Positions 12,735-49,370 of a stretch of 64,000 nt of DNA are shown here, in pieces. A program made the position numbers and the translations under genes. This DNA is from Mytilus trossulus. Taxonomy: Eukaryota. The stretch covers positions 19,654,001-19,718,000 of the forward strand of contig NC_086377.1 in assembly GCF_036588685.1 (NCBI RefSeq), given 5' to 3'. Within the stretch, counting starts at the first letter, position 1; every line of letters begins with the position of its first letter. Under the pieces are notes generated by a model, which made no database searches, was not told the origin of the DNA, and saw nothing but the letters and a program-made list of their open reading frames with translations.

Positions 12735-14686
12735 TTAGAGGAGATAACCCGAAAAAAAGCTCCAATCACCATGTATAGTTTCCGATCCTCGTCCTGGGTA
12801 ATGGCGCACTTTGACAACATCTCCCTTGTGCAGATATATTACGGCATTCATCGACCCGGCAAAATTTTCACCACGTGGTGCATGTCCTCTTGATATTTCG
12901 CTACTGTTCTGTACAATTTGAAGCTCTAAAGGTGTACTTGTCTGTAGAAATGTACAGGCAAAGAAGTATATTCCATTACAGGGTGCTGTGAAATGACCCG
13001 TATGTTGGTTATATGCTTTACCGATATTGGTTATCACGTGATCAAAAATAACAGTTTGTGTCGAACCAAGGGTTACATGTGGAGTCAATCTTGCATGAAA
13101 GGCAACTTTATTGGAAGGAATCGCTGAACCTGCTATTAAAAAAAAAATACGGTTGTATCCACTTCTGATGCCATACATTTCTCATTCACATTAAGCCCAA
13201 ATTTCAAAAATAAAAACGCATAAGTGTAAATGCGTTACATTGTACGATATAAGTCTTCTTTTATGAATTGAAGAATATATAGAAAAAGGATTAACGATGG
13301 TATTCATTTCTGCTGCATACATGTCTTATTCACGTCTAAATTTAGAGAAAAAAGCATACTTCTAAAAGTATTTAGATATAGGTCTTCTTTTATCAACTAC
13401 AATTATGTTATCTTTACTCAACTCTTGAATTGTTTTATCTATTTCAGTTTTATTTGAATGTCTCTTATATCTAAAGTTATATAAGGTAATTTTAACAATA
13501 TATTCTGCTGTTACACATTATTGAAAAACTTACAACTGGGAAATTTTATTGTTTAAAGTTAAAGTTGGTCAGTCTCTCACTTATCACATTCTCAATATTT
13601 TTTAGTGACTGAAAGCCGTATGCATAACTTAATGATTGATTGTTGGTTGCTTAACGTCCAGTGGCAGTATGCATAACTTAATGTTTTACTTCTATTAAAC
13701 ATTTAACTTACTCTCTCCTAGAAGTCTGTTGGTTCTCTGAAGAGTATCAATTGCTTCTAATAATGCTGCTTTTGCTTTACCTACAAAATGTACAATAAAC
13801 AAGTCATAGATAATTTAAATCTCGTATTTGCGCCACGCGCTAGTTTCGTGTACAAAAGTCTCATCAGTGACGCTCAAATCTAATAATTTTGAAAAGTCCA
13901 AATCAAGTATGAAGAAAGAGCTTGTATGACTATAATTCCGAAAAAGAATTTCCGTATCCTATCTAGCTAGAGGTTGGATTAGATTATTATGAATAAAATA
14001 TTAAGCCACTTTATCTGTACCATTTATAAAACAATGTTTCAGAGCTATGACCATCAAATATGAGTGCTGTAGCAGGATGAAATTATAATTGAACATGTTA
14101 GCAAGACAAAGTAAAAAGTCGTTATGTTCAAATAGTGAGTAAATAATTAATCTTTCACGAGACAAACATCTGTCAAATCACATAGCTATGTAATTTGGAA
14201 GTCTACGAATTTCCGCTTAATAATTTAAAAAGAACTTAAACGTTATATGTAAGATAAGATAAGAACATTTATTGTTAGTCGGGTTTCATAAAATGCTACA
14301 AACATAAGGTCTACTCGCCGACATTAATAACAATTACAACACATACAATATAATGACATATAGGACAGATACAACACACGCAAAAGACAATGTTAAGCCA
14401 GCTATATTGTATAAGCACAGTTTATATATATATATAATCAAGCACAAGCAGGTAAAGCATTAAACTAGAATTTAAGCACATGCACAGCAGTCAAATAAAT
14501 GAAATTTACTAGTTATGAAAGTCAGACCAATTGTCGTCATATTGACATAAAACACGTATATCATTATTATGTAGAGACACGCAACTTGGACTACTTACCA
14601 ATTTTTCGGCAGCAGTCATCTCCACCATACACATATACTACACTTATGCATGTTATAAACAATAGGCTTATAAATATGTACTTCAT
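12735..14686 (-). CDS. Secreted C1q-domain-containing protein, gene 1 (184 aa); exons complement(14599..14686, 13712..13780, 12735..13132)
   Basis: Exon 1 reads MKYIFISLLFITCISVVYVYGGDDCCRKI (signal peptide-like) then G|gtaagt. Exon 2 is tag|GTAAA..GAGA|gtaagt (KAKAALLEAIDTLQRTNRLLGE). Exon 3 is a gC1q domain (VAFHARL..VIFDHVITNIGKAYNQHTGHFTAPCNGIYFF..LHKGDVVKV..SFFSGYLL*). Lengths 88+69+398=555 nt, in frame; the exon 3 acceptor is tandem (TAGCAG). Confidence 0.92.
13618..13683 (-). mobile_element. 32-bp 5'-truncated retro-insertion with 17-bp TSD in intron 2 of gene 1
   Basis: gtatgcataacttaatg at 13618..13634 and 13667..13683 flanks an insert with a (CAAT)n-like tail on the minus strand; the gene 3 intron has the empty site at about 27453. 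Confidence 0.75.
13830..13874 (-). ncRNA. Decayed type I hammerhead ribozyme in intron 1 of C1qDC gene 1
   Basis: Minus strand AGCGTCA CTGATGA GACT-tttgt-ACAC GAAA CTAGCGCG TGGCGC. The core boxes are kept, but stem II is mismatched and the GUC triplet is lost. Same intron position as the gene 3 copy. Confidence 0.7.
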
Positions 14687-15040
14687 TTTTACTTTCAAAG
14701 TATATCCGTATAATCAAATTGGTTGGTACAACATGAATCTGTAACCATTTGGTAATGTGTTGTTTCAGTACCTTACACATTATTATAAAGTTATTAGATA
14801 CCGTAATGATCATATTGCGTGCTTAAAAATAAAAATACACCTATTACAATACAAACGTGCACGCTATTTTTTTTTAAAGATTGCAACATTTGTTGAACAG
14901 ATTTTGTATGCTGTATATGTCAGATGGTTAAAAGTAAAATCACAAAAATACTGAACTCCTAGGAAATTTCAAGGGAAAGTAACACGAATTACAACCATAT
15001 GGTGCCCTATATCTTCCATGGAGATAAATCTGAGTTGACA

Positions 15041-15597
15041 GAATCTATCTCAATAAGGTAACATAATCTATCTCGATAGTTTAACATAATCTATCTCGAG
15101 AGGTTAACATAATCGATCTCGATAAGGTAACATAATCTATCTCGATAAGGTAACATAATTTATCTCGATAGGTTAACATAATCTATCTGGATAGGTTAAC
15201 ATAATCTATCTCGATAGGTTAACATAATATATCTCGATAGGTTAACATAATATATCTCGATAGGTTAACATAATCTATCTCGATAAAGTAACATAATCTA
15301 TCTCGATAGGTTAACATAATCTATCTCGATAAGGTAACATAATCTATCTCGATAAGGTAACATAATCTATCTCGATAGGTTAACATAATCTGTCTCGATA
15401 GGTAAACATAATCTATCTCGATTAGTTAACATAATCTATCTCGATAAGTTAACACAATCTATCTCGATAAGTTAACACAATCTATCTCGATAGGTGAACA
15501 TAATCTATCTCGATAGGTTAACAGAATCTATCTCGATAGGGTAACATAATCTATCTCGATAGGTTAACATAATCTATCTCGATAGGTTAACATAATC
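15041..15597. repeat. 23-bp minisatellite (AACATAATCTATCTCGATAGGTT), about 24 copies, upstream of C1qDC gene 1
   Basis: Directly visible head-to-tail array without spacers. Confidence 0.95.
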
Positions 15598-15699
15598 AGG
15601 TATTTGTTTACCACTTATCAGGATTTTATCTCAACAAGTACAGATTTTTATTTTACAATGTATCTAGCTTTTTTATAAACTAAGTATAGAATAGTCGTG

Positions 15700-18600: not shown

Positions 18601-20100
18601 CGTTGGATAACTTTTAGTGGTCATGGGCGACTATCTACTCCTTGTTCGGGTTGTTGTAACTTTGACACATTCCCCAGTCTTCGTTTTAAATTTTGCGTTC
18701 TATATCTTCCTCCTTTTCCTAGGAGCATCACCATGAGGCACGATGAGAATAAGAATATATTTTCTACATTTGAAAATTCCTTTAGCAAGTCATGAATTTG
18801 ACAGTTGTTGTCCATTCGTTTGATGTGTTTTATCCTTTGAGTTTGCCATTTGATTAGGAACTTTCCGTTTAGAATTTTACGCGGAGTTCAGTATTTTTGT
18901 GATTTTCCTTTTTTTTTATATCATGTATCTATATATCTATATATATTTAATGTCGCAATTTGCCTGTCAGTTTCAGTTTTTTTCTGCTACAAAGGTAATC
19001 TTCTCGAAACACAAATTAGTATACATACGGTTTGCAGTAGGAGTAAACACGAGGACGGTTTCAAACAGAATGATTTTAAAAGCAGAAAAAATGTGTACCT
19101 AATATTAGATGACAATACGAAAACTTAAAATCCAGGCTAAACATAGGAGAAGGTACTTTGATTCAGACACGGACTCGTGATTTCGATGGTTTGTTTTATT
19201 GTTCTACATTGTATTTGTTTTTGCAAACATTTAAAAAAAAAACTTGTTTATTCTTAGTCCTTAGTTGTATTTGACTCAACCTTTTGGAAGTTTGGGACCT
19301 CATGCAATGCTCTTCCACCTTGTACTTGTGTTGGCTTTACACCTTTTGTTTATTTCATTGTAGCGTCACTGATGAGTCTTATGTAGACGAAACGCGCCTC
19401 TGTTGTATTGAAATATAATCCTGGTACCTTTGATATTGTTTTTTTGGTTTGTGCTTTTGTTTGATAAGGCATATATAGATATGGTCTAGACTTTATTTTC
19501 GAATAGATATTGATTCTTGTGATGTCGGACGAGTTCATGTGGTCTATTGTACTGTTCGAGACATTTGTTGCTTGTAAATTTTTGTATGTTTTGTATGATA
19601 AAATAATATTTCAAAAGAATGAATTTTTTTTTTTTTTTTTTTTAAATTGACTCAGATACACAGCAAACAAGTCAACCTGCTTTGTATCATATATAAATCA
19701 AATCAATAAACCACAGTTATAATTACTGTATAATCTATAAATTCACACAGTGATCACAGCTGCGTCCTATATGAAAAATCCTCCCTATACATGTACACAG
19801 CAATTGTTACACAATAATTTATATTAAATATACAATAGACATTGCTGTTTGAAGCTTTAATACATGTAGTAAAATATTAAATACGGTAACCCGTAAAAAA
19901 GCTCCAATCGCCATGTATTATTTCCGATCCAACTCCAGGGTAATGACGCACATTCACAACATCTCCTGTGTGCATATATACAACTGCATTCATCGACCCA
20001 GCCTGCGATCCTCCACCTGTTGCTGCATGTCCACGTGATATTTCGGTGCTGTTTTGAACCATTTGAAGATGTAATTGAGTTGCAGTGTGTGGTCTGAGAA
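15700..20100 (+). repeat. Segmental duplication unit X (intergenic plus gene 3' end), copy 1; paralog at 23060..26810
   Basis: Colinear anchors: gacgttttatgtatt (15703/23060), gtaaattcatgttggatagctg (16447/23607), gacatgaaaagctgttgaactgc (17305/24638), cagcaaacaagtcaacctgc (19661/26375). Confidence 0.85.
19250..19435 (+). mobile_element. Retrozyme fragment with near-intact type I hammerhead (19362..19406)
   Basis: AGCGTCA CTGATGA GTCT-tatgt-AGAC GAAA CGCGC CTC TGTTGT, followed by the aatcctggtacctttgat tail also seen at other copies. The triplet is CTC instead of GTC and stem I is weakened. Confidence 0.75.
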
Positions 20101-21682
20101 ATGTGCAGGCAAAGAAATAAATTCCATCGTTGGGTGCTGTGAAATGACCCGTATGTGGGTTATATGCTTGACCAATATTTGTAATCACCTTATCAAAAAC
20201 AACAGTCTGTGAAGAACCAAGGGTGACATACGGTTTCAATCTGGCATGAAAGGCTACTTCAGTTGACGAAATTGGAGAATAAGCTATTAAACAAAAATCA
20301 TAAGTTGAACATTATATTCATTTACATATTGCCTCAACTGATGATTTACACTTTGTTTCAAGTATATTCAATTTGAGCTGCCTTGGTATCTATATATTCT
20401 ATGTTTTTCCTATGACGCTTATCAATTTCCATTTACGTATGGTAAATATTTCACTGTTTAATTAGTCTATAAGTTTGTTATGAAATTTGGACTTTCAAGC
20501 GACTCTTTTTCTGCCGAAACACAGTCTCATACTTTCGGTGATTTAATTCATAATAACATTACTATAAAAATAATCATTGGAATTATATCAAGCATGGGCA
20601 ATGACTCGTATATCATGTATATGGTGTAGGGATAAATGACTTTGACCATGTTGTATTTTCTATTTCTACTGATATCTTAGCATATTACCATAACTTACTG
20701 TCACCAAGCAGGCTGTTGGCCCTCTGCAGTATGGTAATTGCATCTTCTACAGTTGACTTTGCTTGTCCTAAAACAAGGTGATTGTTAAGATACAATATGT
20801 AAGTTTTCATCCCTACTTTTTTTTTTAGTTGAGGCACAATACGCACATACACAATGGAATAACTCAAAGCGAAATGAATAATGATATGCATAACAAGAGA
20901 GACTAAAGATACAACCCTTACTTCAAATAAGTCGATCACAAACTGACCAGAGAACAAAAAAACAACAACAATCAACAGTAAAACACTAGAGAGAAAACAA
21001 AGGAATAGGCAACACGAATCCGAACAAAATCTGGTGTGATCTCATGTGCCTCAGAATGAGACCAGACTAGCTCCAAATATTGCATCAGTGGTGCTGCTTG
21101 TTTAAGTACAAGTTGGGAGGTGTCAAGTTGCGTACCAGGATTGTTACAACGATGTTTACAAATATAATACCTATCAATGTTGAAAGTAGCATGGCATGAT
21201 AGAATTATTTTGTTTCTAATAGAAATATTTTATACTCTAAAAGTTTATACTTCGTGGCGGACCTATAATGTTCGCTCAAAATATCGCCATTTTTAATTGA
21301 AGAATCTAAAACGTTTTAGAAAATCGACAGTAAAAAAATGAAAAAAGAACAGACACATTCAAATTTACTTCATGTTTTTATTTAATTTCCTAGTGAGCAA
21401 CATCAACAATAATGTCGATTTTGATCTCCGGCGTTGTTCGAAATTCATCTGACGTTGCAGTTTAAAGTATTACATCAAGCACGTGCAGCCCGTGTTTTAT
21501 TAATATAAGAACATTGCTTTGTATCCAAATCTGAAGAAGAACTTCATATAAGAATCAATAATAACAAACTGAATTTTTTTTGACATACCTATTTTGCCAC
21601 AACAACTGGTTTCTTGACCAACTGTGGATGACAGAACGGAAAGTGCAATAAGAATTATATGTCCCATGTCGACGTACTGCAT
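19877..21682 (-). CDS. Secreted C1q-domain-containing protein, gene 2 (189 aa); exons complement(21589..21682, 20699..20767, 19877..20283)
   Basis: Exon 1 MQYVDMGHIILIALSVLSSTVGQETSCCGKI with G|gtatgt; 69-nt exon 2 (G)QAKSTVEDAITILQRANSLLGD; exon 3 gC1q domain VAFHARL..GHFTAPNDGIYFF..SFFTGYRI*. Lengths 94+69+407=570 nt, in frame, canonical GT-AG. Confidence 0.92.
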
Positions 21683-21732: not shown

Positions 21733-23059
21733 TGATTTTATTTCCGCGGTAAACTCGGTTAAAGCGCAGTTTTTTACAAGTTAAAGTATGAAACATCCGA
21801 AAGGAACATAGACATTTCCGATTAAAATCATAATAAATGTTTACATCCTTAAAAGCCAAATTAAACATAATTGTGAATAGTGTATTATATATACTATTTT
21901 ATGTACAAGATAAATTGGTTCATTTAGAAATTGGCTTAATCAATCACCAAACATTTAATGATATCATTTTGGTGAAACATAACATTTTTTAAATTGAAAT
22001 AAAAATAACGCATATGTTCTCATTGAAATAACATGATTATTATTAGTCCATCAGCTGTTGAGGTAAATTTCAGTTCTGTGTTACACCCTAGGGTACCGCA
22101 ATATTTTTGTATAAATCTAAAGAGTAATGTCTGAAGAATAGTTTAAGAGTATATCAACAATTTTGTTTAATACATATATATATAGAAATAAGAAAGATAA
22201 CACAGTATTCGGTACAATTTCTCTTTTTAAATTAAACACATCATATCTTATAAATACGGATGCTAATTTTTATTTAATTTTTAAATCGTATAGGACCAAG
22301 AAAAAAAGGCAGAGGATAATATCCAAAACTCATGATTTTGAATGAATCTAATCATACATACTTGTTTTCGTGATAAAAAAAAGTATATTTTTTTACCTTG
22401 AAACATAGAGCATCTAGTAACTAAAGGCAGTTGAACAAAATTCAAAGGTAAGAAAGGAGAAACAATGTTAAAGGTCATATGGTAATACATTATTGTTTTT
22501 TTTTTTTGCAATATATTTGATATCGGGAAATTAAAGACCTTACTTCAATTAAAACTATGACAGCTATCTACATGATCTAGTTTCATCTACATCATTTGTA
22601 CAAAAAAACATTTTTTTATATTTTTTGATATCAAGTTCAATTATACATTCAGAAACGACCTTTTTTCCTCTGTGTCTTGTAGAATCGTCTATTCTTAAAA
22701 TATTCTCTCGCACAATATCTGGACATCGGTGGGCATGCAACATTGCAATATAACCCGTTTACAAATGAAAATCAACACTCAGACTATAGGCATGAAGAGA
22801 GGCAATAAATGAACAAAAGACAAACCCGGGACACAGAAGTACAAACAATACACTATCAACTTTGAAAATTAAAAGTAAAATAGAAACATGGATCACGAAG
22901 AAAATGTAGGGGCGACATCACAGAGTGAAAAGAACTTGCTTCTTGCTAGACACTTTCCGTGAAAACAATTTGATATTAAGACAATCTTTTGTTTCATTTT
23001 TTTTCCAATTTCCTACATGAGGTATTTGCCTCATTTGCCTCACCGTAGTTAAGGCGATG

Positions 23060-26000
23060 GACGTTTTATGTATTGAAAGAAATTTAACGACTATGAAGCT
23101 TTATTTATCGTGACAAAAAGTCACAATACTTTATCTCATCATTCAAAATAACTATCGCGTTACGGCAATTTCAAGTAATAAGATGAAATATCATAAATAG
23201 GTTTTTTTCTACAAAATTAAATTTGGATTCAAAGTCGTTTTATTTGTTTAAAAACATGACTTTTATTGATGACGAAGCTACAATTTAGGATGTGCAAAAA
23301 GGAAATACACGATAACTGGATAATCATATTGACGAGTTAGAAAAAATATCAAGAAAAATTTTGATAAGAGTTCCGGACTTCTCGAGATAAAACAATAGAA
23401 GTCGTCAAAATACCTATTTATGTTTACCTATCGAGATAAATTAAGTTAACTCAATATAATTTCGATAGCCGGAATTGACTTCCAAAACTCTCATATTGTG
23501 CATTAAAAACAATTTGAATCATGCGCCTCTCCATAGTTAGGTTTATTGTTTCGCATTTTGGCCCCAACACATTTCTTTTATATACATTTTGTAAAAGTAC
23601 TGTGCAGTAAATTCATGTTGGATAGCTGAAAATTTATATAGCCTTAAAATGGATTACGATGAACATCGTTATTGTTTAACGTATTTCTAATGGGGTATAT
23701 CTGTATTGCAGTCTGCCTTTTCATATCTATACAAGACCTTGAAGGCCGTACGATAACCTAACCATGTTAATTTCCATGACATTTGATTTATGATGGGTAG
23801 TTGTCTAACTGGCAATCATAACTCGTCTTTGTTTTTATATTGGTCGAGCAATTATTGCAACGTTAACAACATTTCAGACCCATGCAATTTGTGATTTGGT
23901 TTTTTGAATGAAAGATGCTAAAGACACCAAATTTGTATTTATTCATCAGATAAATAAATGTCAAATGTTTCACAAAAAGATAGGTCGCAAATAATCGGGT
24001 TTTGTCTTTTAACCAAATATTTAGGGAATATTTTTATGTCAATATTTACAACAATTCAAGACAAAAAAGTTGGATGGTGCCACAAAATGAAACCTTTTAA
24101 CTACTCAAAATCATATGTATGAACGACATTGAGAAAAAGAATGATTCAAACATGCATCTTTTTTTTTTAATTTGAATGCCAGAAAAAGAAGATGGTTATA
24201 GCTTTCAAAAGTTAATTCTAATTTCATATCATAATGATACAGTGCAACCGCATAGTTACCCATTTTAAATAATAATAAAAAAACAAGCGATGCATTTACA
24301 AAAACAAGACACTAACAATCAAAACCAAGAAGAAAACAAAGACAAAACCAAAGGACATTTATATCAGCAGCTATAAATAATAATTAAGAAACAACACGAA
24401 CTCCACTAAATATCGAGAGTGAAATCAATTGCTCCGGAAGGGTAAGCATTTATCAATTTTAGCAATCAAATTATATAACAAAAAAGTCAACAAAACGAGC
24501 AATAAAACTAAATGCAACAATTAAAAAAAAGAAAAAAGAAAACATTGAACAAATCTTTACATCACGCTCCCCAATTAATTAAACCTGTTATTGTTCCTGA
24601 TAGAGCTTGTCGACAACGGACGTGTCCAACTGTGTATGACATGAAAAGCTGTTGAACTGCAATTACTTCTGTATCAACTTAATTCGTTATAATTCGATGA
24701 GCATTAATAGCTTTGCCACAAAAAATATTCTAGCCTATAATATCTCTTTTTATTAGCTGCTATTTCTGATTGTTTTGTTCACATATTGTTGTCAATAGAA
24801 TGGAGTTGTATGCGATTGTCATAAGACATAGGTTTAGCTAGTTTTCAACAGATTTAATCCACCACTATCTACATACCCAAATGCCTGTAAAAAGTCAATC
24901 TATATACATAGGCTTTCTTCCTTTCTTAACTTTCAGCAAATCGTCTATTTATAACGATTCATAGTATTATGTGTGTCAGATTTATTTGCAGCTTTTACTA
25001 TTTGACAGTAAAATTGTAATTCTGGAATCAATCTTATGAAAACAAGTTCTCACCACTTGCTCCTTGATTTTTTTATATATTGCCGTGTGAGACCGACATA
25101 TAAAAAATCGAGGAGCATGTGATGAGAACTTATTTTAATAAGATTGTTTGGGAATACACTTTGAAGTTTCTTACTACCACAATGTGATTAAGTCTGTGTA
25201 TGAGGGTTATGTATATTTGTTCGTTGTATTGAAATGTTCTCCTTGGCATATCATTTAAATCAATTACAAGACTTTTGTCGATTTGTTCGTTACTATAACT
25301 TATTACTACCGAAAAGCACTTTGGATGCATAAAATGTTATCTTCATTCGTTATCTTCAGGTTTTCTATTCCAATCATGCATAATATGAAACCCATAACTG
25401 ATGTTATGTTTCAAAAGTTAAGGTGAACACTATGTATAGAAACCAAGAGAATAAGGATACATTTTCTACATTTGATAATGCCTGTAGCATGTCATGAATA
25501 TTTCAGTTGTTGTCTATTCGTTTGATGTGTTTTATTTTTTGATTTTGCCATTTGATTAGGGAGTTTCCGTTTAAAATTTTTCGCTGAGTTCAGTATTTTT
25601 GTGATTTTATATTCTTTTTTGTATCTATACAAATTTTATGTTGCAATTTGCCAGTCAGTTACCAATTATTAGAAATTATTATAAACTAAGGAATGTATCT
25701 CCCTCATGCAAACCTCTGATTCCTCTCACGGATTTGGCTATACTTTTTGGAACTTTTGGATTATAGCTCTTCATTTTTTATATAAGTTTTGGATTTCAAA
25801 AATTTTGGCCACGAACATCAATGAAGAGACATGTATTGTCGAAATGCGCATCTGGTGCAAGAAAATTGGTACCGTTAGTTTGATTACAGGTTTTTCTGCT
25901 ACAAAGGTAATCTTCCCAAAACAAAAAATAGTATAATACCATAAACATGCTGTTTCCAGTTGGAGTAAACACGAAGGCGGTTTCAAACAAAATGATTTTA

Positions 26001-26810
26001 AATGGAGAAAAAAAGTGTACCTCATATCAAATGACAATACGAAAAATTCAAATCCAAGCTAAACATAGGAATAGGTACACGTACTTTGATTCCGACACGG
26101 ACCGTGATTTCGCTGGTTTTATTAAAATATAATCATCGTACTTTAATATTGTTTTTTAGTTTGTGATTTTATTTGATAAAGCATATTCAGAGATGGTCTA
26201 GACTTTTTTTACGACTAGATATTGATTTGTGTGGTGTCGAACGAGTTCATGTGATCTGTTTTACTGTTCGAGACATTTGTTGCTTGTGAATTTTGGTATG
26301 TTTTGTATGATAGAATAATATTTTAAAAGGATGGATTTAAAAAGAATAAAATTATAATAATTGACCCAGATTCACAGCAAACAAGTCAACCTGCTTTGTA
26401 TCATATAGAAATCAAATCAATCGACCACAGTAATGATCTGTATAACATATTGATTCACACAGTGATCACAGCTACGCCCTATATGACAAATCCTCCCTTT
26501 ACATGTACACAGCAATTGTGACACCATAATTTATATTAGATAATATACAATAAACATTGGTTTTTGAAGCTTTAATAGTAAAATATTAAATACGGTAACC
26601 CGTAAAAAAGCTCCAATCGCCATGTATTATTTCCGATCCAAGTCCAGGGTAATGACGCACTTTCACAACATCTCCTTTGTGCATATATACAACTGCATTC
26701 ATCGACCCTTCCTGTGATCCTCCGCCTGTTGCCGCATGTCCACGTGATATTTCGGTGCTGTTTTGAACCATTTGAAGATGTAGTTGAGTCGCAGTGTGTG
26801 GTCTGAGAAA
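23060..26810 (+). repeat. Segmental duplication unit X, copy 2
   Basis: See copy 1; a third, TE-riddled partial copy spans about 28960..37000. Confidence 0.85.
25661..25888 (+). mobile_element. Retrozyme fragment of a second family with a core-mutated hammerhead (25815..25858)
   Basis: ACATCA ATGAAGA GACA-tgtat-TGTC GAAA TGCGC ATC TGGTGC: a CUGAAGA-type core with the first C changed to A. The segment is absent from the paralogous position near 18970. Confidence 0.7.
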
Positions 26811-28523
26811 TGTGCAAGCAAAGAAGTATATTCCATTGAAGGGTGCTGTGAAATGACCCGTGTGTTGGTTATATGCTTTACCAATATTGGTTATCACGTG
26901 ATCAAAAATTACAGTCTGTGTGGAACCAAGGGTTACAGATGGAGTCAATCTAGCATGAAAGGCTACTTTATTGAAAGGAATCGCTGAACCTGCTATTTAG
27001 AAAAACAAATAACGGTTATATCCACTTCTGATGCTTACATTTCTTATTCACATTAAGTAGAAATAAGAAAAAGGATGCATAATTGTAAATGTATTACGAT
27101 GTAAGTCTTCTTTTGTGAATTTGAGAAATTTAAAAAAAAAAGTAATGGCTTAATGATTGCGTTCATTTCTGATGCATACAAGTCTTATTCACGTCAAGTC
27201 TAATTTAAAACAGGTGGATACTTGTAAATGCATTACGATGTTAATATCCTTTTATGAATTACAATCAAATGATCTTAACTCTACTCTTGAATTGTTTTAT
27301 ATATATATCAATTTCATTGGAATGTGTCCTATATTTAAATGTACATAAGTTAATTTTAGCAATAGATTCTTTTGTAACATATTTTTTAAAAAATTACAAC
27401 TGGGTCAGGCTCTCAATAATCACATTCTCAATATTGTTTAGTGACTGAAAACCGTATGCATAACTATTTGTTTTATATCTATAAAACATTTGTTTTATTT
27501 CTATAAAACATTTAACTTACTCTCTCCAAGAAGTCTGTTGGTTCTCTGAAGAGTATCAATTGCTTCTAACAATGCTGCTTTTGCTTTACCTACAACATGT
27601 ACAATACACTCATCATAGCTACCAGGATTAAAATTTTGTATTTTCGCCAGACGCTCGTTTCGTCTATAAAAGACTCATCAGTGACGCTCAAATCGAATGT
27701 TTTTGAAAAGGCCAAATCAAGTACGAAGTAAGAGCGTTGATGACTATAACTTGGGAAAAGTTTTTCCACATCCCATCCAGCTAGCGGTTAGATTAAATTA
27801 TTGTGAATACAATTGATAGAAACTTTATCTGTACCATTTATAATTCAGACCCCTTGCAAAAAAAACGATGTTTCAGAGCGATGACTATCAAAGATGAGTG
27901 CTGAAGCAGGATGAAAATTCCAATCGAATATGTTAGCAAAACAAAGTAAATAGTTCAAACAGTGAGTAACCAATTAACCTTTAACGAGACAAACATTTCT
28001 CAAATCACATAATTATGCAATATGTAAGACTACGATTTGCCGCTTAATAATTTAAGGAGAACTCATGCGTTATTTGTAAGATAAGATAAGACAATTTATT
28101 TTTAGTCGGGTTACATAAAATACCCTAAACATAAGCTCTCTACAGTTTTTTGCCGACATCAATAACAATTACAACACATACAATATAAAGACATATAGAA
28201 CAGATACAACACACACAATAGACAATATAAAGACAGCTATATTGTACAAGCAAAGTTCAAATATTATATAAAATCAATCACAAGCAGGTTAAGCACTAAA
28301 CTAGATTATAAGCACATGCACATCAGACAAATAAAAAAGATTAACTAGTTCTAAAATTCAGACCAATTGTCGTCATATTGACATGGAAACACGTATATCA
28401 TTATCATGTAAAGACACGCAGCGTTGACTACTTACTAATTTTTCGGCAACAGTCATCTTCACCATAAACTAATGCAATACTTATGCATGTTATAAACAAT
28501 AGGCTAATAAATATGTACTTCAT
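26586..28523 (-). CDS. Secreted C1q-domain-containing protein, gene 3 (187 aa), mosaic of gene 1-like and gene 2-like parts; exons complement(28436..28523, 27521..27589, 26586..26992)
   Basis: Exon 1 MKYIFISLLFITCISIALVYGEDDCCRKI; exon 2 (S)KAKAALLEAIDTLQRTNRLLGE; exon 3 gC1q domain ending SFFTGYRI*. Lengths 88+69+407=564 nt, in frame, GT-AG sites. Confidence 0.92.
27645..27688 (-). ncRNA. Minimal type I hammerhead ribozyme (retrozyme-derived) in intron 1 of C1qDC gene 3, sense orientation
   Basis: Minus strand reads AGCGTCA CTGATGA GTCT-tttat-AGAC GAAA C-gagc-GTC TGGCG. The CUGAUGA and GAAA core is complete, with a 4-bp stem II, 2-bp stem III, GUC cleavage triplet and 5-bp stem I. Confidence 0.85.
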
Positions 28524-29259
28524 TTTTGCTTTCAAAGTATTTTCGTCTTATCAAGTTGGTCGGTACGACATGAATCTGTAACCATTTGGTAATGTGTTTT
28601 ATCATTACCTTACATATTATCATGAAGTTATTAGATACCATAATGATCATATTGCGTGCTAACATATAAAAATACACATACTACAATACAAAAGTGCACG
28701 CTAGTTTTTTAGATTGCAACATTTGTTGAACAGATTTTGTTTGCTGTATATGTCAGATGGTCAAAAGTAAAATCCCAAAAATACTGAACTCTGCGGAAAA
28801 TTCAAGGGGAAGTATTTCTGATTAGTTATCAAGCGGCACACATAACAATCCTATGGTGCCCTATACCTGCCATAAATCTGAGTTGACCAAGTTAATCTCG
28901 ATAAGTCAACACAAATCAGATATGTTGACGACAACTCTACACAAGTCATGATTTTTTTCGTGATAGAAGTTTAATGTATTCTTCGTTTTTGACTGAAGGA
29001 CATCAAGTCGGCGTATCAATGTCAAATACTTTTTCAGATGTATCTTAAATAAAACCAGATGTACCTCAAGGGTGAGTTTTAGGTCTTATATTTAGGTCTT
29101 TCCACTTTTCTTCTGATCCTTATTATTGTTTCTTCTTCCGACACGTTTTCTGACGGTGTTTTTGGTTTTGCAAGAGGTCACTTAGATTGTTGACATATTA
29201 TATCGAACAGTAATCACGATTTTGAAACTGACCCTGTTTAGCCGAACACTTTTTATTGT

Positions 29260-30160
29260 TATCTCCCCAAACACTGTTTCTCTTGAGTACAAATCTCTTC
29301 CGCAGTGGCAAAGGTTACAACAAAATCAGTTCATCAATTTGTTCATTATATCCTAAGGATCTTAGAAATATATTTGAGCAAAGCGGTCCGGACACTCCAT
29401 ATGAGAGTTATTTTTCCTTCTGAATTTAAATTCAGTAAAATGTAAATGTAAATGGTACCCATAACTGATAGAGACCTAGAGTTTTTTGATTTGAGGAGGT
29501 CCTTGGTCCAAACGAAAGAAAATAGGGTCACGGTCAAATGTCAAGGTCGTCTCTAAATTTTGATTTTGGCCTAATTTCACCTCTTTTCAAACAACATATC
29601 AGATATCGACAACATTTGTTTTACTTAATTATTAGCTGCGACATAGCGTAATACATATATATTGGTTCAAATGGTACGCTGACATTAAATTAGAGTTTCC
29701 TCCCCTCTTTTATATATGCGTTTGGTGATATAACTCATCAACCAAATATAATTAGGACTTAGTATCTTTTGATTTGAGGTCCTTGGTTTATGACCTAGAA
29801 ATTGAGCTCAAGCTCATGGGTTAATTTTCTTGATTATGACCTTTGCTTTTACCTAATATGTATAAATGATAAAGCCATGGAATTGTCTGCATTAAGATGC
29901 AAGCCATATGACCTTGAAAAGAACACCGGAAGTTACCTGTGTAAACCGGAAGTAACTATTGTGTGTACTCTTTGAAAGTAAAAGTATATAAAACAATATA
30001 TATTTGGTGACAGTGTGTCAATTAAATAGTTAAATGATATCGAAAGTAACGTTTTGTAAACCGGAAGTATTTATTTATCTACCTTATTTTAATAAATTGC
30101 ATAGAAACCATATAATATTGGAATCAGCGTATTATAGGCTATCATTTGAAGCTGTTAATG
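29260..30160. repeat. Interspersed repeat, inverted homolog of 5990..6700
   Basis: See the paired feature; internal tandem aaccggaagta units. Confidence 0.55.
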
Positions 30161-30214
30161 ACATTTTACAATATTCATAATATTTATTAATGGTTTGCCT
30201 TAATTAATCCCTAA

Positions 30215-31272
30215 TCATACTATAGATCATTTGCTAATGATCGCACTATTTTTGTAATTGGAACAGCCAAAAGTCAATGTGGTGTTAGAAAATATTTGCC
30301 ATTTGGTTAATGAAAACAAAATGTTAGTTAATGTGCAAAAAACTAAGACAAATAGGTTCAAAACAAAAACTTTCCGTCATGTGCAATGACATATTAAATA
30401 TATCCGTTAATATCCAACAAATAAATAAAAGTCAGTGTGAAAAGGTCCTTGGTATTTTTGTTGATACCACGCTTTCTTGGTATAATCAAATAAATCATAC
30501 AATTAAAAAAAAAGTTAATTATTCATTGACTTTTATTAAAAAGGAATCAAGAAATACTTGAATCATAATGCACGAATTCTATTTGACTATACATATATTC
30601 TTCCACATTTGAATTACTGTTGTTCATTATGGGAAAACTGTAACAAGATTTTAGTTTGACAGTCTACTTAATTTGCAAAACAGGTCAGCAAGAATTATTT
30701 TAAACGAACACGATATTCGTAAAACATATTTTGAACTATTTAAGGATTCTGGAATTATTCCCGTTACTAAGAGAAGACGTTACCACAAATCATTATTAAT
30801 GTATAAATCAAAACATGAACTGGTACCAACATATTAATCCAATCTGATTGTGCCTACAAATAGTAAACAATCGTACAATACCCGATGTTCACTATCGGAT
30901 AATTATTGTCCTTTTAAAAATCAAATACAGAATTATACAAATCAAGTTTTTCCTTTAGTGGTCCAAAAGTGTAGATTTTGCTATCCATTGAAATAAAAAA
31001 AATAAAAAAGCATATATGCATTCAAATACTCTTACAAGTCATTATATTGGTAAAAGTGTGAAATTTATGAGATAATCCACGTTGTATACTATGGGTGTTT
31101 TTTTGTTGGTGTTGTTATATTTTGTTTATATAGATATTGGAAGATGTGGTGTAAGTGCCAATGAGACAACTCTCCATCCAAATTACAATTTAAAAAGTAA
31201 ACCCTAATATACATCTATTATTGATATTGTATTGGAAAGCCTTATAACAAAATGATTAAATCCAAACGAGTT

Positions 31273-31355
<83 letters not shown>
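30215..31355 (+). mobile_element. 5'-truncated CR1/L2-type LINE with (ATT)n tail
   Basis: RT C-terminal remnants KVLGIFVDTTLSW..I, ILPHLNYCCSLW and LQNRSARIIL; ends in the (ATT)n run at 31276-31355. Confidence 0.7.
31276..31355. repeat. (ATT)n microsatellite, about 26 units
   Basis: Directly visible; one ATC interruption. Confidence 0.95.
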
Positions 31356-31357
<2 letters not shown>

Positions 31358-31478
31358 ACAAAAAGAACGACTTTGACGCTTTATTTATCTAAAAAAAGAA
31401 TACAAGATGTTATCTTATCACTTAAAATAACTACATGTATCGCTAAACGATAATTTCGAGTAATCAGATAGAATAATT

Positions 31479-34400
31479 GAGCCGCGTCGGATAGAAATCG
31501 ACCTTATGCAATTCGACGTCAAACCGAGTAACGTTACGATAAAGTTTCACAAGTTTTCATACAGGTAGTTTCTGACGTTATAAAAAAAAACATGTCGCTA
31601 TCCTACAAAACTACGTTTTTTCTAAAAAATATTGTGCGAACATTTCTGGTCGGATTTTAATGTACTAGGTACCAATAGAAGCAGAATTGTCAGAGTTATA
31701 TTTGTTTATTTTGATAGACTTTTGTTGTGAAACGTTTTCAATTTTTGGTTATATATAACCAGTATTGTTTTTGTTCAGAAATTTCTTATGTATTTCAACG
31801 AAATTAAATTGTAAAAACTGTTATACATGTTCATAACATGAGAAACAAAAGTAATGGACGACAAAACTATGACAAATTAAACTAGTATACTTTCGACGAT
31901 TCTACGTATTTTAACTCCGTATTTGTGAAAATCCAACATAATATGCCTTCACAAATTTTTTTTAGTGGGGTTTTATATGAAATTTGTAAAAAAACATACG
32001 GGGAAACCATACAATGTTAATCTGAATAAAACGGGCCCTTATCTAACGTATTCCATACATATAGGACAAAACTAGTATATTATTTCTGACAAGTTTAGTA
32101 AAAAATGCCTATAATGTTTCACGGAAACCGCTTTATCCGGTCCGACATGAACATTTCCAAATTATCCGGGAACCGTCATCTGCGTGTCGCGTGTCGTCAG
32201 CTTTAATAAAAAACAATGTTCCTGAATACTGTCCTTTTCTAAATAACATATTTCTCAACATTAATATCAGTTTTGGCTAACAGGAATACATTGTTTTGCT
32301 AAGGTACGTAAACTTCCTAATACGTTCTATATATTGAACTATTTTTACGTTCACGATCTATTTTTACTTTTTATACAAAGTGAATTTAAAGTACAAATGT
32401 ACTATGATCTACTATCTATTTTAGTAAAATTTATTTTCATTTCATTCAGTGGCATATGACACCTGTCTTAAAATATAATTGTATACAATTCTTAAGCTGA
32501 ACTAAACTAAAGTAACATTCTGAAAAACTATTTCTAGTAGTTAAAAACGAAATTTGTGCTGTATTGCAAAACTTTGCTACACACAGTCATGACAATGACA
32601 CACGCAAAAACAAAATTAGGTCAAAAGTAATGCATATCATTGTACCGATGCATTTTGGAAAATCTAAAAAGAAATATTAACACAAACATACAATATTAAA
32701 CAAAGACCAAGACGTGCTCTAGGTGGATTTTGTACTATTTGCGTGCAATTTATCTGTTCTTAACTATTCAGAAATTTAGAAATGTTTTGCGTGTAGTTTA
32801 GTTCAATAACATTTCTATTTAGAAATTGAAAGAAAGAGGGAAACATTTGCATAATACATGTGTACATGCATTTCGAAAACTAATAACTTTCAAAATAAAA
32901 CCTTTTAAACCTTCTTTTTCATATCCCGACAACTTTAAAATTAGTATTCGGGCAATAAAATTCCCGATCTATGCATCCGTTGGTCTTACAGTTTTGCGTC
33001 CGTCCGTCCGTCTGCGTGATTAAGGTAACAATTTTGGAAGATGTAAACTGTGATGTCGGATTTATAAATAATAAACCAAAATTTCATCTAAAAAAAACGT
33101 TTATTTTGAAATTTGAACTACTATAATTTAAATAGATAGTATTTGAGATTTTGATCTACCTGTCACAAATCACTGGTGAACTATAATGGCGCAAAGCGCG
33201 ACAACCAGTTGTATAGAAAAATTCTCTTGGTTCAATGTGTCTTTAATTTCATTCCTTTTTAATGTTGTAGTAAATTTCTGAAATGGACTGGTTCAATAAC
33301 ATAGGATGCGAAGAACTAGAAAATGAAGCAGTTGCCTATTTTGAACAATATATAGGGTCAATACCAGAGGTTTCGGCATCAAGCAATAATGAACTGATTG
33401 AGTCTGATAACAGCGATTCCGATATTGAAAATGACGAATCTGATATTGTAAATACATGTGACACAATTTAAGCTAGGGCCCGGGAATTTTATTCCACTTC
33501 CGCCATTCAAGATCAATCGGAAAATACATGTTCTCTTAATCAAAATGATGAATTAGAGGATCCTTCCCGACTTCGAATAAATGCTCTTTTTGCTGACAAC
33601 TGTAATTGTACAAAAAAATGTTTTACAAAGCTTTCCACATTTAGAGAACAGACCTATGATGTATCGTTATCTGTTTGTGAATTTACAAAAGCAGAGCGTG
33701 ACATATACTTGCTTTCAAAATTAGAAAACTTAGAAATAACAGACTCGGTTTTCAGAGGAGGAAAGAGAGAACGAAAACGATACCGATATTCTTTTCAAGG
33801 ATGTAAGATATGCGAGTTCACATGGAGAAATATTTATAAAATTGGGAGGAGCGAATTTAAAAGTTTAAAACAACACTTAAATGCAAATGGCGTAGCCCCT
33901 CGTCCGCATGGTCTTAGTGGAAGAAAATCGAATCACGGACATTCATTTGAAGTGATTGAAAATACGATAAAATTTATCAAGCGGTATGCTGATGAATTTG
34001 GTCTTCCTCTCCCGGCTGCGCCTCGGACAACCGACAATACCCCTCCTATTCTACTACCTTGTAGCGAGAGCAAGAAATATGTACACTCCAAATATGTTAG
34101 TTCATGCGTTAACTCAGAACAACAATATTTTCAACTAACCGTATTTAAAGAAGTTTGGAATGCATGTGTCCCTCATATTCAATTGATGAAACCAAAAACG
34201 GATCTGTGTAAAACGTGTTTTCAGTTGAGGGAGGATATTTCCGGATCTATTTCAGAAGACGCAAAATTAGTGACAACTCAAAAATTAATTGACCATATAC
34301 AGTCTGCGCGGACGGAGCGTGAATATTATAAATTATGTACACAAAGATCACGTTATGAATTAAAGTTAGCTGAGTCTCCAATAGGAAAGTATAACACTTC

Positions 34401-35606
34401 ATGTTCAAAGAATTTTGAAAATGTTCATTACACTTTTGACTTTTCACAATATGTAAATTTGCAACATTCGTCTCAACAAGTTGGAGCTCTATACTTTTTA
34501 ACACCTCGAAAGGTTCAAATATTTGGAGTTTGCGATGAAAACTTTCCAATGCAAACTAATTATTTGATTGATGAGCAACAAACAATCGGAGGGAATGGAA
34601 GTCGGACACATCGACCCAATGCTGTTTTAAGTATGCTCACCATTATCTGCATGGTAGTACTTACGGTGAAAAAGCGTGTCATTTTCATGCTGATAATTCC
34701 GTGGGACAAAACAAAAATAAAAATACTTTACATTATCTGTTGTGGAGGTGCGCAAAGGGTTTACATAAAACTATTAACTTGCATTTTATGAATGCTGGGC
34801 ACAGAATTTTTTTATGTGACGCATGTTTTGGCATGTTGAAAAACATTTTTAGAAAGTCGGACGTAATTACTGATTCGCAACTGGTTAAAATTGTTGACAA
34901 TTCTGTCAAATGCAATAGGTCATATGTTTTCAATGAAAATGACGATGACGAAAACAGCTTAAAATGGTACAGATGGGATAATTTCTTCACTAAATATTTT
35001 AAACCACTCAGAGGTATAGGAAAATTAAATCACTTTAGATTTACCAATGACGAAGTAGGAGTCGTATTTGCGAGAGAAACTCTTGATGAACCGGAGAAAA
35101 GACTGGTCCTCCTAAAGGAAAGCGCAAACCTACCGGAGTTGCTTACGATACTTCCAGAAATTATTTAGCCAGCAGGGCTGACAGAGGAGAGAAAGCGTTA
35201 TCTGTACAATGAAGTCCGTCCTTTTGTTCAGTTTAATTTCCGTGTCGAATTTTGTCATCGTGCTTCAGAGGAGTAACATTTTACATATGCTGGTTAAAGT
35301 TGGATTGAAAACTTGAGAATCATGTATTGCTTCGTTGTAATAACCTTATAAATTAAATTAAATATTGTATGTCAATGTATGATTTCATATCTCTCTTTAT
35401 TGTGATAAAAGGACCGATACAGAATAAAATTAATGCACGATAACGGTAATTTCACGACGTTGTCGTGAGATCTGATGTTATATATAATTAAAAAGAGTAA
35501 AAAGTTTTTTTGTATTCAAATTGTATGACTATCAGCAAAATTGATATGAACAAAACTCATTTTGAGATTTTTTTTGCATAAGGTCGATTTCTATCCGACG
35601 CGGCTC
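31479..35606 (+). mobile_element. Sola-superfamily DNA transposon (probably Sola2), 4128 bp
   Basis: Perfect 33-bp TIRs GAGCCGCGTCGGATAGAAATCGACCTTATGCAA (31479..31511 and 35574..35606) with 5'-GAG termini; AT-only 4-bp flanks (aatt and atat, an imperfect TSD); internal DDD transposase. Confidence 0.85.
33283..35276 (+). pseudogene. Sola-type DDD transposase pseudogene (about 660 codons)
   Basis: ORFs 33283, 33709 and 34701 join into one reading frame broken by TAA (33469), a 1-nt frameshift (about 34638) and TAG (35166). Motifs: C-x2-C..H, HYTFDF, HADNSVGQNKN, GH..CDACFG and C-terminal PAGLTEERKRYLY. Confidence 0.85.
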
Positions 35607-35825
35607 ATATAATGAATTGTTGAGATATATCTCGAGTTATTTTTTCTCGAAATATGGGTCAATATATAAAAAAAGAAAGGTATGATTGCCAATCAAGGTC
35701 GTTTTATTTGTTTATTGTTACATTGAATGCTGTTCCAAAGTTTGCTTGTTTTGGGTATTTTGTATTGGTTTTCATCTGAAAATCGATAAATCTAAGGTGA
35801 CGCCCCCTACAGCCGAGATATATAA

Positions 35826-36380
35826 ATAAAGGCAACAGTAGTATACCGCTGTTCAAAACTCATAAATCCATGGACAAAAAACAAAATCGGGATAACAAAC
35901 CAAAACCGAGGGAAACGCATTAAATATAAGAGGAGAACAACGACACAACACCGAAACGCAACACACACAGAAACGGACCAAGCATCAGACAAAACACCAC
36001 GAGAATAACAAATATAACATGAAAACCAAATGCATGAATTTGGGATAGACAATTACCGTGCCACGTCTTATCTCAATATCTCAAAAATAAGAGAAAACAC
36101 AAACGACTCAACGTTAAAATGCAACACACACACACAGAAACGAACAAAAATATAACAATGGCAATCTTCCTGACTTGGTACAGGACACTTTTAAAGGGGA
36201 ATAAAAGTGGTGAGTTGAACCTGGTTTTATGGCATGCCAAACCTCGCACTTTAATGGCAAAGTTAAATACAACATTGAAATGACAACATAATATTACAGG
36301 CTACAATACAAATAAATAGGAGAACATATTAGACAAAGAAAAACATGATTAATAGATAGCAAAAATCATCAGGTTTAAAA
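35826..36380 (-). repeat. Interspersed repeat family B (hairpin end aacagtagtataccgctgtt)
   Basis: Near-identical to 39420..39755; fragments at about 1460, 12305, 40090 (inverted) and 42865. Confidence 0.75.
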
Positions 36381-37007
36381 ACCAGACAAAAATTTTATAT
36401 TTGTTTACAATATATAGTAAGGTTAACCTACAAACAAGATTTCATAAAGATTGGAAGAAGTTGCTTCCGTACTATTTTGCATTGTTTTCTAATGGATAGG
36501 TTCTACAAAAAGATGAAACATATCACGCCGAAGCTACATATTATCATTGGAATAAGAAAAAAACACGATAACCGGATAATTATCTTGATTAGTTAGAAAA
36601 CCTTTCAAGAACAATTCTGAAAATGCTTCATGACTTGTCGATATAAAACAACAGAAGTCGTTAAAATACACATTCCATGTTTACCAATCTAGATAAGTAA
36701 TGCTAACTCAACATTATCTGCATGGCAGCAATTGACTTTCATAACAATCATATAGTGGCTTTGAAAAAAAATGAATCATGCAGCAGTGTGTTGTTTCTCA
36801 TTTTGGCGTTGACACATTTTCTTTTATTATAATTACTGTGCAGTATTCTTGTTCGATAACGAGTATTAATATAACCATTAAAGTGGGTTAAGGTGATATC
36901 CTTATTATTCATCGTATGGCTATTTCTGGATTGCAATCTGTCTTGTCATATCCATACAAGACATTACATGCCATTCGGTTACATAAACATGTTAACTTCA
37001 ACATTTG

Positions 37008-37110
37008 TAGGACTTTGGTGGCCGAGTGGTCTAGTAGGTCATTAACTGTATTCCTACCTTGACAACACTGCCGTTAAATACAAACTAAAATCAAATCATC
37101 AATCACGCAA
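37008..37110 (+). mobile_element. Internally deleted tRNA-derived SINE
   Basis: Pol III A-box TGGCCGAGTGG followed by a (aatc)n-like tail; no B-box or cloverleaf. Confidence 0.45.
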
Positions 37111-48097: not shown

Positions 48098-49370
48098 TTA
48101 ATAGACTTGATATCCAGAAAAGAAACCCCAACCTCCATGAATCGATTCTATTCCAGATCCAGCATGATGGCGTACGAGTACACTGTCTCCTCGCTTCAGG
48201 GATACTAAAGCATTCATGGAACCTGCTTCAAAATCCCCAGATGCAGCGTGACCTTGTGATATCATATCGTTGTTTTTAATCATTTGTAAATGTAGACTAC
48301 TGCTACTACCAGTCTTAAGAAATGTAGAAGCAAAGAAATACACACCGTCATTAGGAGATGTAAAATGACCAGTTCGGAAGTCATACGCGCTACCAATATT
48401 TGTAATCACGTCATCGAAAATAACTGTTTGTGAAGAGCCAAGAGTGACGTCCGTCGATAGCCGTGCATGAAAAGCGACTCTTTTATCTAAAATTTGTCCA
48501 CCTATGAGAGAGAAAAAAAAACAATGTGAGGTATTAGCCTTTAATCTGAAATATAAACAACCGTGAATGGTAAACAAATAGATTAAAGAGGTATGTTTAC
48601 TGACTGATCTCTAACCTAAATTGGTTTACTAGAGATATAGCATTCATATCCATTTATTATTAGTTTCATTGACAGAAACTGTCAATTCAGTATGAATAAG
48701 CATGCTTAAACGAATGAAACTATCTAGTGAACCTTCATGCAGTTTTTGCCCTCTATTTAATTTTGTCTTTCCATTTAATGTTTTTCCGAGCATCCCAAAA
48801 CCAATAACATTTAGGTGAAATATGTAAAGAACAAAACTGTTCAGCGATTTACAAAAATGTTACTTAATACATGATACAAAAAATAAACAAGGAAAGCTAA
48901 TTCGAATCACGATAACAATAAATTATATCTAACTAGCATATGTTTTACTAATTGAACAATGCAGTCTCTTAGACGCTTTTTGCTCAGAAATTGAAAATCA
49001 AATATTTGTCTTGCAAATTAAATTCCAACAGAAATCCATGTTATGAATTTATAATGACAATATGTGATGTTGATATACGATTTAAAAATACGTTCATTTC
49101 ATCATCCGTAACTTTTTTTTACTTTGAACAGTTTTTGAAATGGTTCACGATAGTAAATGTTATGTGTTCTTTATAAATGCTAAGTCTTTAAAAAAAATAA
49201 GGTTAAATAACATCAACCTATTAATAACTGTTTATTGATTGTTGTGTACACTCATTACCTGTTTTATTATGCGTTGCAGATATTTCCTTAATTCTTCTTT
49301 CATTTTCGTATATGTACATGGCCATCAGTGCTAGAACAATAGCATTACAGAACACAATTAAATAATACAT
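48098..49370 (-). CDS. C1q-domain-containing protein, gene 4 (171 aa), two exons: complement(49259..49370, 48098..48501)
   Basis: Exon 1 MYYLIVFCNAIVLALMAMYIYENERRIKEISATHNKT with G|gtaatg and an in-frame TGA 7 codons upstream of the ATG. Acceptor tttctctctcatag|GT. gC1q domain VAFHARL..VIFDDVITNIGSAYD..GHFTSPNDGVYFF..GFFSGYQVY*. Lengths 112+404=516 nt, in frame. Confidence 0.87.

What the first reader, a model, noticed from the sequence alone, without database searches (positions are those of the whole stretch)
26586..28523. Gene 3 is an in-frame mosaic with a switch point inside the C1q domain
Seen: the upstream region, exons 1-2, both introns and the first part of the C1q exon of gene 3 match gene 1 (VIFDHVITNIGKAYNQHTGH). 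From about 26810-26826 (FFACTFL) onward, the coding sequence and 3' flank match gene 2 (RPHTATQLHLQMVQNSTEISRGHAATGGGSQ..GYRI). Inference: unequal crossover or gene conversion at a conserved beta-strand shuffles the variable loops between paralogs, a germline route to lectin diversity. Which gene is the recombinant cannot be fixed from this window.
Basis: seen in the sequence. Interest (0 to 1): 0.7.

Follow-up and report, generated by a model that had tools for sequence, protein, structure and literature searches.

The report
Recombined mussel C1q lectin gene
A mussel gene of the C1q-domain family joins the front part of one paralog type, in frame, to the back part of a neighbouring type; it also occurs in other animals' sequence data and is likely transcribed, and a second neighbour likely carries a similar swap, so mix-and-match recombination may add to this large immune family's diversity.

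Summary
Confirmed. Gene 3 (28523-26586, minus strand, 3 exons, 187 aa; equal to a protein its source labels Mytilus trossulus) is an intact chimera. Promoter region, exons 1-2, introns and the first 51 C1q residues are of the A type (gene 1 and gene 0, 3.7 kb left of the window). The rest and 3.5 kb of 3' flank are of the gene-2 (B) type. The switch lies in 26836-26815, beside the longest A/B identity (25 nt). Trees on either side reject each other (AU p about 1e-4). Contigs from 4 of 8 runs laid (4 studies, two alleles) bridge the switch, so it is no assembly error. Gene 3 is the recombinant: both parent types exist whole in other Mytilus. Its 5' donor was likely a sister of gene 1, and the gene order fits a Lepore-type deletion after a gene-2 duplication. 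A circular intermediate was tested and rejected. Genes 0 and 1 share the 5' part but have 3' halves from other sub-lineages, so swapping recurred. The process is known; I found no report of it in C1qDC genes. The scan noted a similar chimera elsewhere in this genome. Binding was not tested.

The parts
28436..28523 (-). Gene 3 exon 1 (start codon, hydrophobic signal-peptide-like segment), A type
   Evidence: CDS check; residues 1-53 are 48/53 identical to g1 and 21/52 to g2
27521..27589 (-). Gene 3 exon 2 (predicted helical stalk), A type
   Evidence: helix 25-49 at low pLDDT; a contig of run X2 joins its end to exon 3 (table 7)
26837..26992 (-). Gene 3 exon 3, A-type part (C1q residues up to N105)
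   Evidence: 11 of 11 lineage-diagnostic sites A-type; 93-94% to g0 and g1
26841..26865 (-). Position of the longest exact match between g1 and g2 in exon 3 (25 nt), just 5' of the switch; likely pairing site
   Evidence: the best 30-nt window of paralog identity is 26876-26847 (0.92)
26815..26836 (-). Switch interval, N105-C112 (26836-26805 if only lineage-diagnostic sites are used)
26586..26814 (-). Gene 3 exon 3, B-type (gene-2-like) part to the stop codon
   Evidence: 95.3% to g2; pS 0.105, pN 0.026 against g2
23056..26585 (-). 3' flank of gene 3, a duplicate of gene 2's 3' flank (15699-19876)
   Evidence: collinear blocks 83-91% identical without gaps
22470..23055 (.). High-copy repeat sitting at the end of the duplicated flank, next to gene 2's upstream region
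   Evidence: 486 candidates, most scored copies end at 23055; extent
28524..28980 (-). A-type proximal upstream region of gene 3
   Evidence: 218/242 to g1, 203/242 to g0; weaker match on to 28980 = 15717
28981..37052 (.). Distal A-type upstream of gene 3, broken by nested repeats (28981-31356, 31478-35607); homology resumes at 31354-31475, 35606-35630 and 36507-37052
   Evidence: 73-78% to the other copies
12735..14686 (-). Gene 1 (A-type 5' part; 3' half groups with L009)
   Evidence: CDS equals P0008; trees
19877..21682 (-). Gene 2 (B type, closest to the 3' donor)
   Evidence: CDS equals P0004; whole B-type relatives in M. galloprovincialis
53133..53540 (-). Gene 5 C1q exon (B type; polarises the comparison)
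48098..48505 (-). Gene 4 C1q exon (distant paralog, outgroup)
   Evidence: 59-66% to the others

Best explanation
Gene 3 is an intact in-frame chimera of an A-type 5' part and a gene-2-type 3' part, likely made in the germ line by non-allelic homologous recombination at the best-conserved stretch of the C1q exon. Likely steps (inferred): (1) gene 2 with 3.5-4 kb of 3' flank was duplicated in tandem, downstream of a separate A-type paralog; (2) that A gene paired with the extra B copy over the roughly 25-nt identity and crossed over, deleting the DNA between them (Lepore-type fusion). The same two steps in the other order, across two haplotypes, give the same result. The product would express a gene-2-like C-terminal two-thirds of the C1q head from an A-type promoter, signal peptide and stalk. 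The same A-type 5' part has likely been joined to other 3' halves at about the same place in genes 0 and 1.
For: Shown: sharp switch; incongruent trees, AU p=0.00012 and 0.0001 (9 exons); intact CDS; bridging contigs in X1, X2, X4 and X5 with 3, 0, 0 and 3 differences, against 7-16 for g2 and 25-31 for g0/g1 over the same spans. Both parent types are whole in other Mytilus species, and g3 is the only A/B combination among the aligned rows shown (55 aligned, output cut). Upstream homology is A-type for about 8.5 kb and older (73-78%) than the duplicated 3' flank (83-91%). No extra B-type 5' remnant upstream of g3 and no A-type 3' remnant between g3 and g2 was found. pN is well below pS on both halves (0.025 vs 0.13; 0.026 vs 0.105). 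Second mosaic: g0-g1 are 93.6% alike 5' and 80.7% 3', g0-L007 82.1% and 91.2%; quartet permutation 1/2000; AU without g3 p=0.003 and 0.0005.
Against: The direct donors are not in this haplotype, so the steps are reconstructed. A high-copy repeat covers the left junction. The proximal 5' part is more alike among g0, g1 and g3 (introns 77-85%) than the distal upstream (73-78%), which hints at an added conversion. The pN/pS counts are small (3-5 changes per class). The spliced contig in X2 does not itself span the switch; it overlaps the bridging contig by 30 nt, and the tool guesses X2 to be DNA. The g0/g1 switch interval is wide (26858-26786), so its overlap with g3's could be chance (roughly 1 in 4, my estimate). 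The protein test that g0 leaves its 3' group in the 5' tree was not significant (p=0.17).
Confidence: 0.68

Rival explanations
1. One-step repair: a break in an A-type gene was mended by one-ended invasion of gene 2, copying its 3' half and 3.5 kb of flank, with a non-homologous join at the far end (long conversion tract or template switch).
For: Gives the same final structure in one event; the homologous end is at the best identity block and the far end shows no homology to gene 2's upstream region.
Against: Needs a 3.8-kb tract and loss of the A gene's own 3' flank. The repeat at 22470-23055 hides the join, so microhomology cannot be read.
Confidence: 0.2
2. A single unequal crossover between genes 1 and 2 (anti-Lepore duplication), with later rearrangement.
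For: Gene 3 unit looks like gene 1's 5' side plus gene 2's 3' side.
Against: It predicts order B, hybrid, A; the order is hybrid, B, A. Both intergenic copies should be the same age, but they are 73-78% against 91%. The 5' part of exon 3 groups with g0 rather than g1 (bootstrap 90).
Confidence: 0.06
3. The gene 3 unit was excised as a circle by gene 1 x gene 2 recombination and reinserted nearby.
For: Strong homology ends at 28914 (=15066) and 23056 (=15699), which looked like a circular permutation.
Against: Both apparent ends are repeat termini, and homology resumes collinearly at 31354, 35606 and 36507-37052, so about 900 bp of the source lie on both sides.
Confidence: 0.03
4. Assembly chimera of two haplotypes or paralogs.
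For: Heterozygous genome with a tandem array; no other-species protein orthologue of g3 among 39 clusters.
Against: Both halves differ from every parent by 5-20%; bridging contigs in four studies, two with another allele.
Confidence: 0.02

Closest known systems
Bivalve C1qDC tandem arrays (Gerdol et al. 2019, PMC6835236; passages read)
   Same: Secreted-type C1qDC genes in tandem, ascribed to unequal crossing over; positively selected sites are more frequent in the hypervariable C-terminal part of the domain, the part that is swapped here.
   Different: That paper invokes crossing over for copy number; 'recombination', 'chimer', 'shuffling' and 'mosaic' occur 0 times in its main text. Here the exchange falls inside the domain. 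Supplements were not read.
Haemoglobin Lepore and anti-Lepore fusion genes (recalled, not read)
   Same: In-frame 5'/3' fusion of tandem paralogs by non-allelic crossover; the 3' coding part comes under the 5' gene's promoter.
   Different: Here a close relative of the 3' parent survives downstream, so an added duplication is needed; parents are only 75-80% alike; the gene is old and carries at least two alleles.
Sea urchin Sp185/333 and plant R-gene hybrids (PMC5103432; passages read)
   Same: Clustered innate-immune genes diversified by unequal crossing over, conversion and hybrid genes.
   Different: Sp185/333 recombination is described as possible at any point and tied to short tandem repeats; here exchanges cluster, as far as seen, in one conserved strand region of a folded domain.
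Vertebrate gC1q domains (caprin-2 4OUL, C1QL1/3, Cbln1)
   Same: Predicted fold matches: E 4e-12, TM 0.89 by target, rmsd 1.3.
   Different: 22-31% identity; ligands and function cannot be carried over.

Membership tests
C1q-domain-containing proteins | C-terminal gC1q domain (PF00386) with jelly-roll fold | tested here: met
   PF00386 precomputed for P0001; 10 predicted strands and Foldseek matches to C1q domains
C1q-domain-containing proteins | Signal peptide and helical stalk in place of collagen (secreted bivalve type) | tested here: inconclusive
   Hydrophobic N-terminus and helices 2-18 and 25-49 at pLDDT under 50; no signal-peptide or coiled-coil predictor was run
C1q-domain-containing proteins | Trimer formation and binding of microbial glycans | not testable with these tools
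   Reported for other bivalve members (PMC6835236, PMC10672478 passages); not shown for this subfamily
Chimeric paralog by non-allelic recombination | Single sharp switch of ancestry with incongruent trees | tested here: met
Chimeric paralog by non-allelic recombination | Switch next to a block of parental identity | tested here: met
   25-nt g1/g2 identity at 26865-26841; switch 26836-26815
Chimeric paralog by non-allelic recombination | Junction present outside the assembly | tested here: met
   4 of 8 runs laid have a listed bridging contig
Lepore-type (deletion) fusion | Upstream flank from the 5' parent, downstream flank from the 3' parent | tested here: met
Lepore-type (deletion) fusion | Ancestral order 5' parent then 3' parent, both replaced by the hybrid | tested here: inconclusive
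   No remnants found, but no pre-fusion haplotype was available
Anti-Lepore (duplication) fusion | Hybrid lies between both intact parents, with same-age duplicated intergenic copies | tested here: not met
   Order is hybrid, B, A; 73-78% against 91%
Duplication through a circular intermediate | Copy is a circular permutation of its source with no overlap at the ends | tested here: not met
   About 900 bp of source lie on both sides once repeats are skipped

The most novel reading that the evidence does not exclude
This Mytilus C1qDC subfamily evolves as two interchangeable modules: one 5' cassette (promoter, signal peptide, stalk, first strands) has been joined repeatedly, at the conserved GHFTAP-GIYFFAC stretch, to at least four different 3' recognition modules. 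That would be a recurrent germline mix-and-match route that moves binding faces under new expression control, on top of copy-number change.
Probability: 0.45. Interest if true: 0.62.

Novelty: new member of a known kind. Interest (0 to 1): 0.42.

Why it matters
C1qDC genes are among the largest immune families of bivalves (476 in Eastern oyster, PMC6835236), and their diversity is ascribed to duplication plus point selection. A verified hybrid, and a likely second one next door, show that exchange inside the domain also contributes. It gives a natural swap experiment: genes 2 and 3 have nearly the same C-terminal head under different promoters and stalks, while genes 0, 1 and 3 have nearly the same front with different heads. 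It also warns that whole-domain trees and selection tests on this family can be misled by recombination.

Tried and rejected
Circular intermediate: attractive, rejected. A 19-23-nt 'terminal repeat' at 28958-28980 proved to be a piece of interrupted upstream homology. Assembly chimera: rejected. Gene 1 or gene 2 as the A/B recombinant: rejected, as the control quartets (g2,g5,L007,L009) and (L006,L007,L009,g2) show no switch (1931 and 1455 of 2000 permutations). Runs X11 and X12 (labels C, D) showed only the gene-2 letter at 26790, X3 had no listed bridging contig and X8 covered only 26632-26810; contigs show presence, not absence, so this is no evidence that the hybrid is missing there. Contig depths were not used as copy number. 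Protein AU tests on the 5' part were weak (cassette as one clade p=0.11; g0 with its 3' group p=0.17; g1 with its 3' group p=0.04), while on the 3' part the cassette genes without g3 are rejected as a clade (p=0.0002; groups were named). Literature searches gave no report of chimeric C1qDC genes in the listings; one search gave nothing usable on binding loops, so loop names and their role in binding are recalled only. No complex prediction was run.

Full report
Setting. The window is G000:C5:19654001-19718000. It holds five minus-strand C1q-domain genes (C1q exons near 12.7, 19.9, 26.6, 48.1 and 53.1 kb). A sixth, gene 0, lies 3.7 kb left of the window in L001, and more distant paralogs lie elsewhere on the contig (L006-L010). 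Gene 3 has three exons with GT-AG introns; its 564-nt CDS equals P0001, which its source labels a Mytilus trossulus C1q/TNF-related protein. The AlphaFold model (mean pLDDT 69.9) has ten strands and matches solved C1q domains (best E 4e-12).

Observation. Against genes 1 and 2, gene 3 sides with gene 1 at 26 of 31 informative sites down to 26826 and with gene 2 at 57 of 60 from 26814 on (0 of 10000 permutations). At sites where genes 0 and 1 differ from genes 2 and 5, the split is 11 A-type then 26 B-type with no exception, one further site being private (indel columns counted singly). The switch is therefore in 26836-26815, N105-C112, at the start of predicted strand 106-116. The longest exact match between genes 1 and 2 in this exon (25 nt, 26865-26841) lies just 5' of it. 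Trees of 9 exons on either side reject each other (AU p=0.00012 and 0.0001). The 5' relationship runs through both introns and the promoter region; the 3' relationship runs through 3.5 kb of flank to 23056.

Is it real? Of 24 runs listed, 8 were laid. Four have a listed contig bridging the switch: X2 26753-26913 (0 differences), X4 26753-26856 (0), X1 26760-26882 (3) and X5 26760-26869 (3), from studies P2, P4, P1 and P3. Over the same spans gene 2 differs from gene 3 at 7-16 places and genes 0 and 1 at 25-31. By the difference tables X1 and X5 share the same three changes, a second allele; X5 carries another organism label than X1, which may mean a second species or introgression. In X2 an overlapping contig leaves exon 3 at 26992 and continues with the last 12 nt of gene 3's exon 2, which differ from those of genes 0, 1, 2 and 5. 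That indicates a spliced transcript, though that contig does not itself cross the switch and the tool guesses X2 to be DNA. X11 and X12 showed only gene-2-type letters at 26790, which does not prove absence.

Which gene is the recombinant? The protein search gave 39 clusters, P0001 being a singleton; members of 20 clusters were read and 55 sequences aligned. Whole B-type proteins occur in M. galloprovincialis (including MgC1q20 and MgC1q79), M. edulis, M. coruscus and M. californianus; whole A-type proteins occur likewise. Gene 3 is the only row seen with an A front and a B back. Its 3' part keeps K where gene 2 and its M. galloprovincialis relatives share T (MHKG against MHTG), so the donor likely split from gene 2 early. 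pN is about a quarter to a fifth of pS on both halves, as expected of a working gene, on small counts.

How it arose. In transcription order the array reads gene 3 (hybrid), gene 2 (B), gene 1 (A), gene 0 (A). One unequal crossover between genes 2 and 1 would give B, hybrid, A. I first suspected a circular intermediate because the strong homology ends at 28914 and 23056 map close together in the source. Both ends proved to be repeat termini, and the upstream homology resumes collinearly at 31354, 35606 and 36507-37052. These upstream copies are 73-78% alike to the others, while the two downstream copies are 91% alike in the same block. So the 5' donor was a separate, older A-type locus, and the gene-2 3' part with its flank is a younger duplicate. 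The simplest route is inferred: duplication of gene 2 with its flank, and a deletion crossover between the upstream A gene and that copy (Lepore-type; name recalled). One-ended repair copying 3.8 kb from gene 2 gives the same structure and cannot be excluded.

A second mosaic. Genes 0 and 1 are 93.6% alike in the 5' part of exon 3 and align through both introns (77-84%), but only 80.7% in the 3' part, where gene 0 is 91.2% to L007 and gene 1 85.0% to L009. The quartet switches between 26859 and 26785 in gene-3 coordinates (1 of 2000 permutations); trees without gene 3 still reject each other (p=0.003, 0.0005); synonymous differences rise from 5/38 to 19/50 (Fisher p=0.015). At protein level the same front is found with four kinds of back half, three of which also occur behind other fronts; on the 3' part the front-sharing genes without gene 3 are rejected as a clade (p=0.0002), but the 5' protein tests are weak. 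Recurrent exchange is thus well supported for this array. A true hotspot is not shown: the intervals are wide, and exchanges are expected where identity is highest.

What it likely does. Gene 3 keeps 71 of 75 C-terminal residues of gene 2 but only 37 of 51 in the N-terminal strands and 21 of 52 in signal and stalk. Oyster C1qDC selection is reported to concentrate in the C-terminal part of the domain (PMC6835236, passages). The likely novelty is therefore a gene-2-like binding region under A-type regulation and oligomerisation; this is inference, and no ligand is known for these proteins.

Comparison and verdict. Unequal crossing over is already invoked for C1qDC copy number (PMC6835236, passages), and hybrid immune genes are known in sea urchins and plants (PMC5103432, passages). 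PMC10672478 and PMC10138031 (passages) added no report of C1qDC hybrids; PMC7653742 and PMC7188851 were seen as search listings only. Searches showed no description of intragenic C1qDC chimeras; the library lacks most subscription papers and no supplements were read. The scan noted an anti-Lepore-type chimera and two conversion cases elsewhere in this genome (unchecked). Verdict: a real, likely expressed hybrid gene, a new member of a known kind, with a credible sign of repeated module swapping in the subfamily. Interest 0.42.

Noticed in passing
L001:6298-8190 (gene 0, window -3700 to -1811): Sixth C1qDC gene with open exons; 5' part like genes 1 and 3, 3' half like L007 and the M. galloprovincialis P0019 group. 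No matching protein turned up among the hits read.
   Followed up: yes
window 15034-15597: 23-nt minisatellite (about 24 units) 350 bp upstream of gene 1's start; only one or two units at the matching place upstream of gene 3 (28880-28930) and an inverted copy at 23377-23453. It could alter gene 1 expression.
   Followed up: partly
window 31478-35607: 4.1-kb element with perfect 34-bp terminal inverted repeats, probably a young DNA transposon; contents not examined.
   Followed up: no
window 28981-31356: Repeat element split by a second insertion (29093-30171) and ending in a (TTA)n tract at about 31270-31355.
   Followed up: partly
window 26989-26994: Tandem acceptor (TAG CAG) at exon 3 of gene 3, also in gene 1; relatives occur as pairs differing by one residue here (GET/GES forms).
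   Followed up: no
L006:7134-7539, L008:2804-4120, L009:3952-4435: A-type paralogs that look broken in exon 3: a one-base insertion (L006), an insertion of about 0.9 kb (L008) and one of about 80 nt (L009).
   Followed up: partly
P0003, P0016 (M. californianus, M. coruscus) against genes 2 and 5: Exon 1 resembles gene 5 while the C1q 3' part resembles genes 2 and 3, hinting at further exchange within the B lineage.
   Followed up: no
window 27527-27538: Gene 3 has NRLL, not KRLL, before the C1q exon, as do gene 1 and gene 5 (gene 2 NSLL); the dibasic site noted in an earlier finding is absent in these genes.
   Followed up: partly
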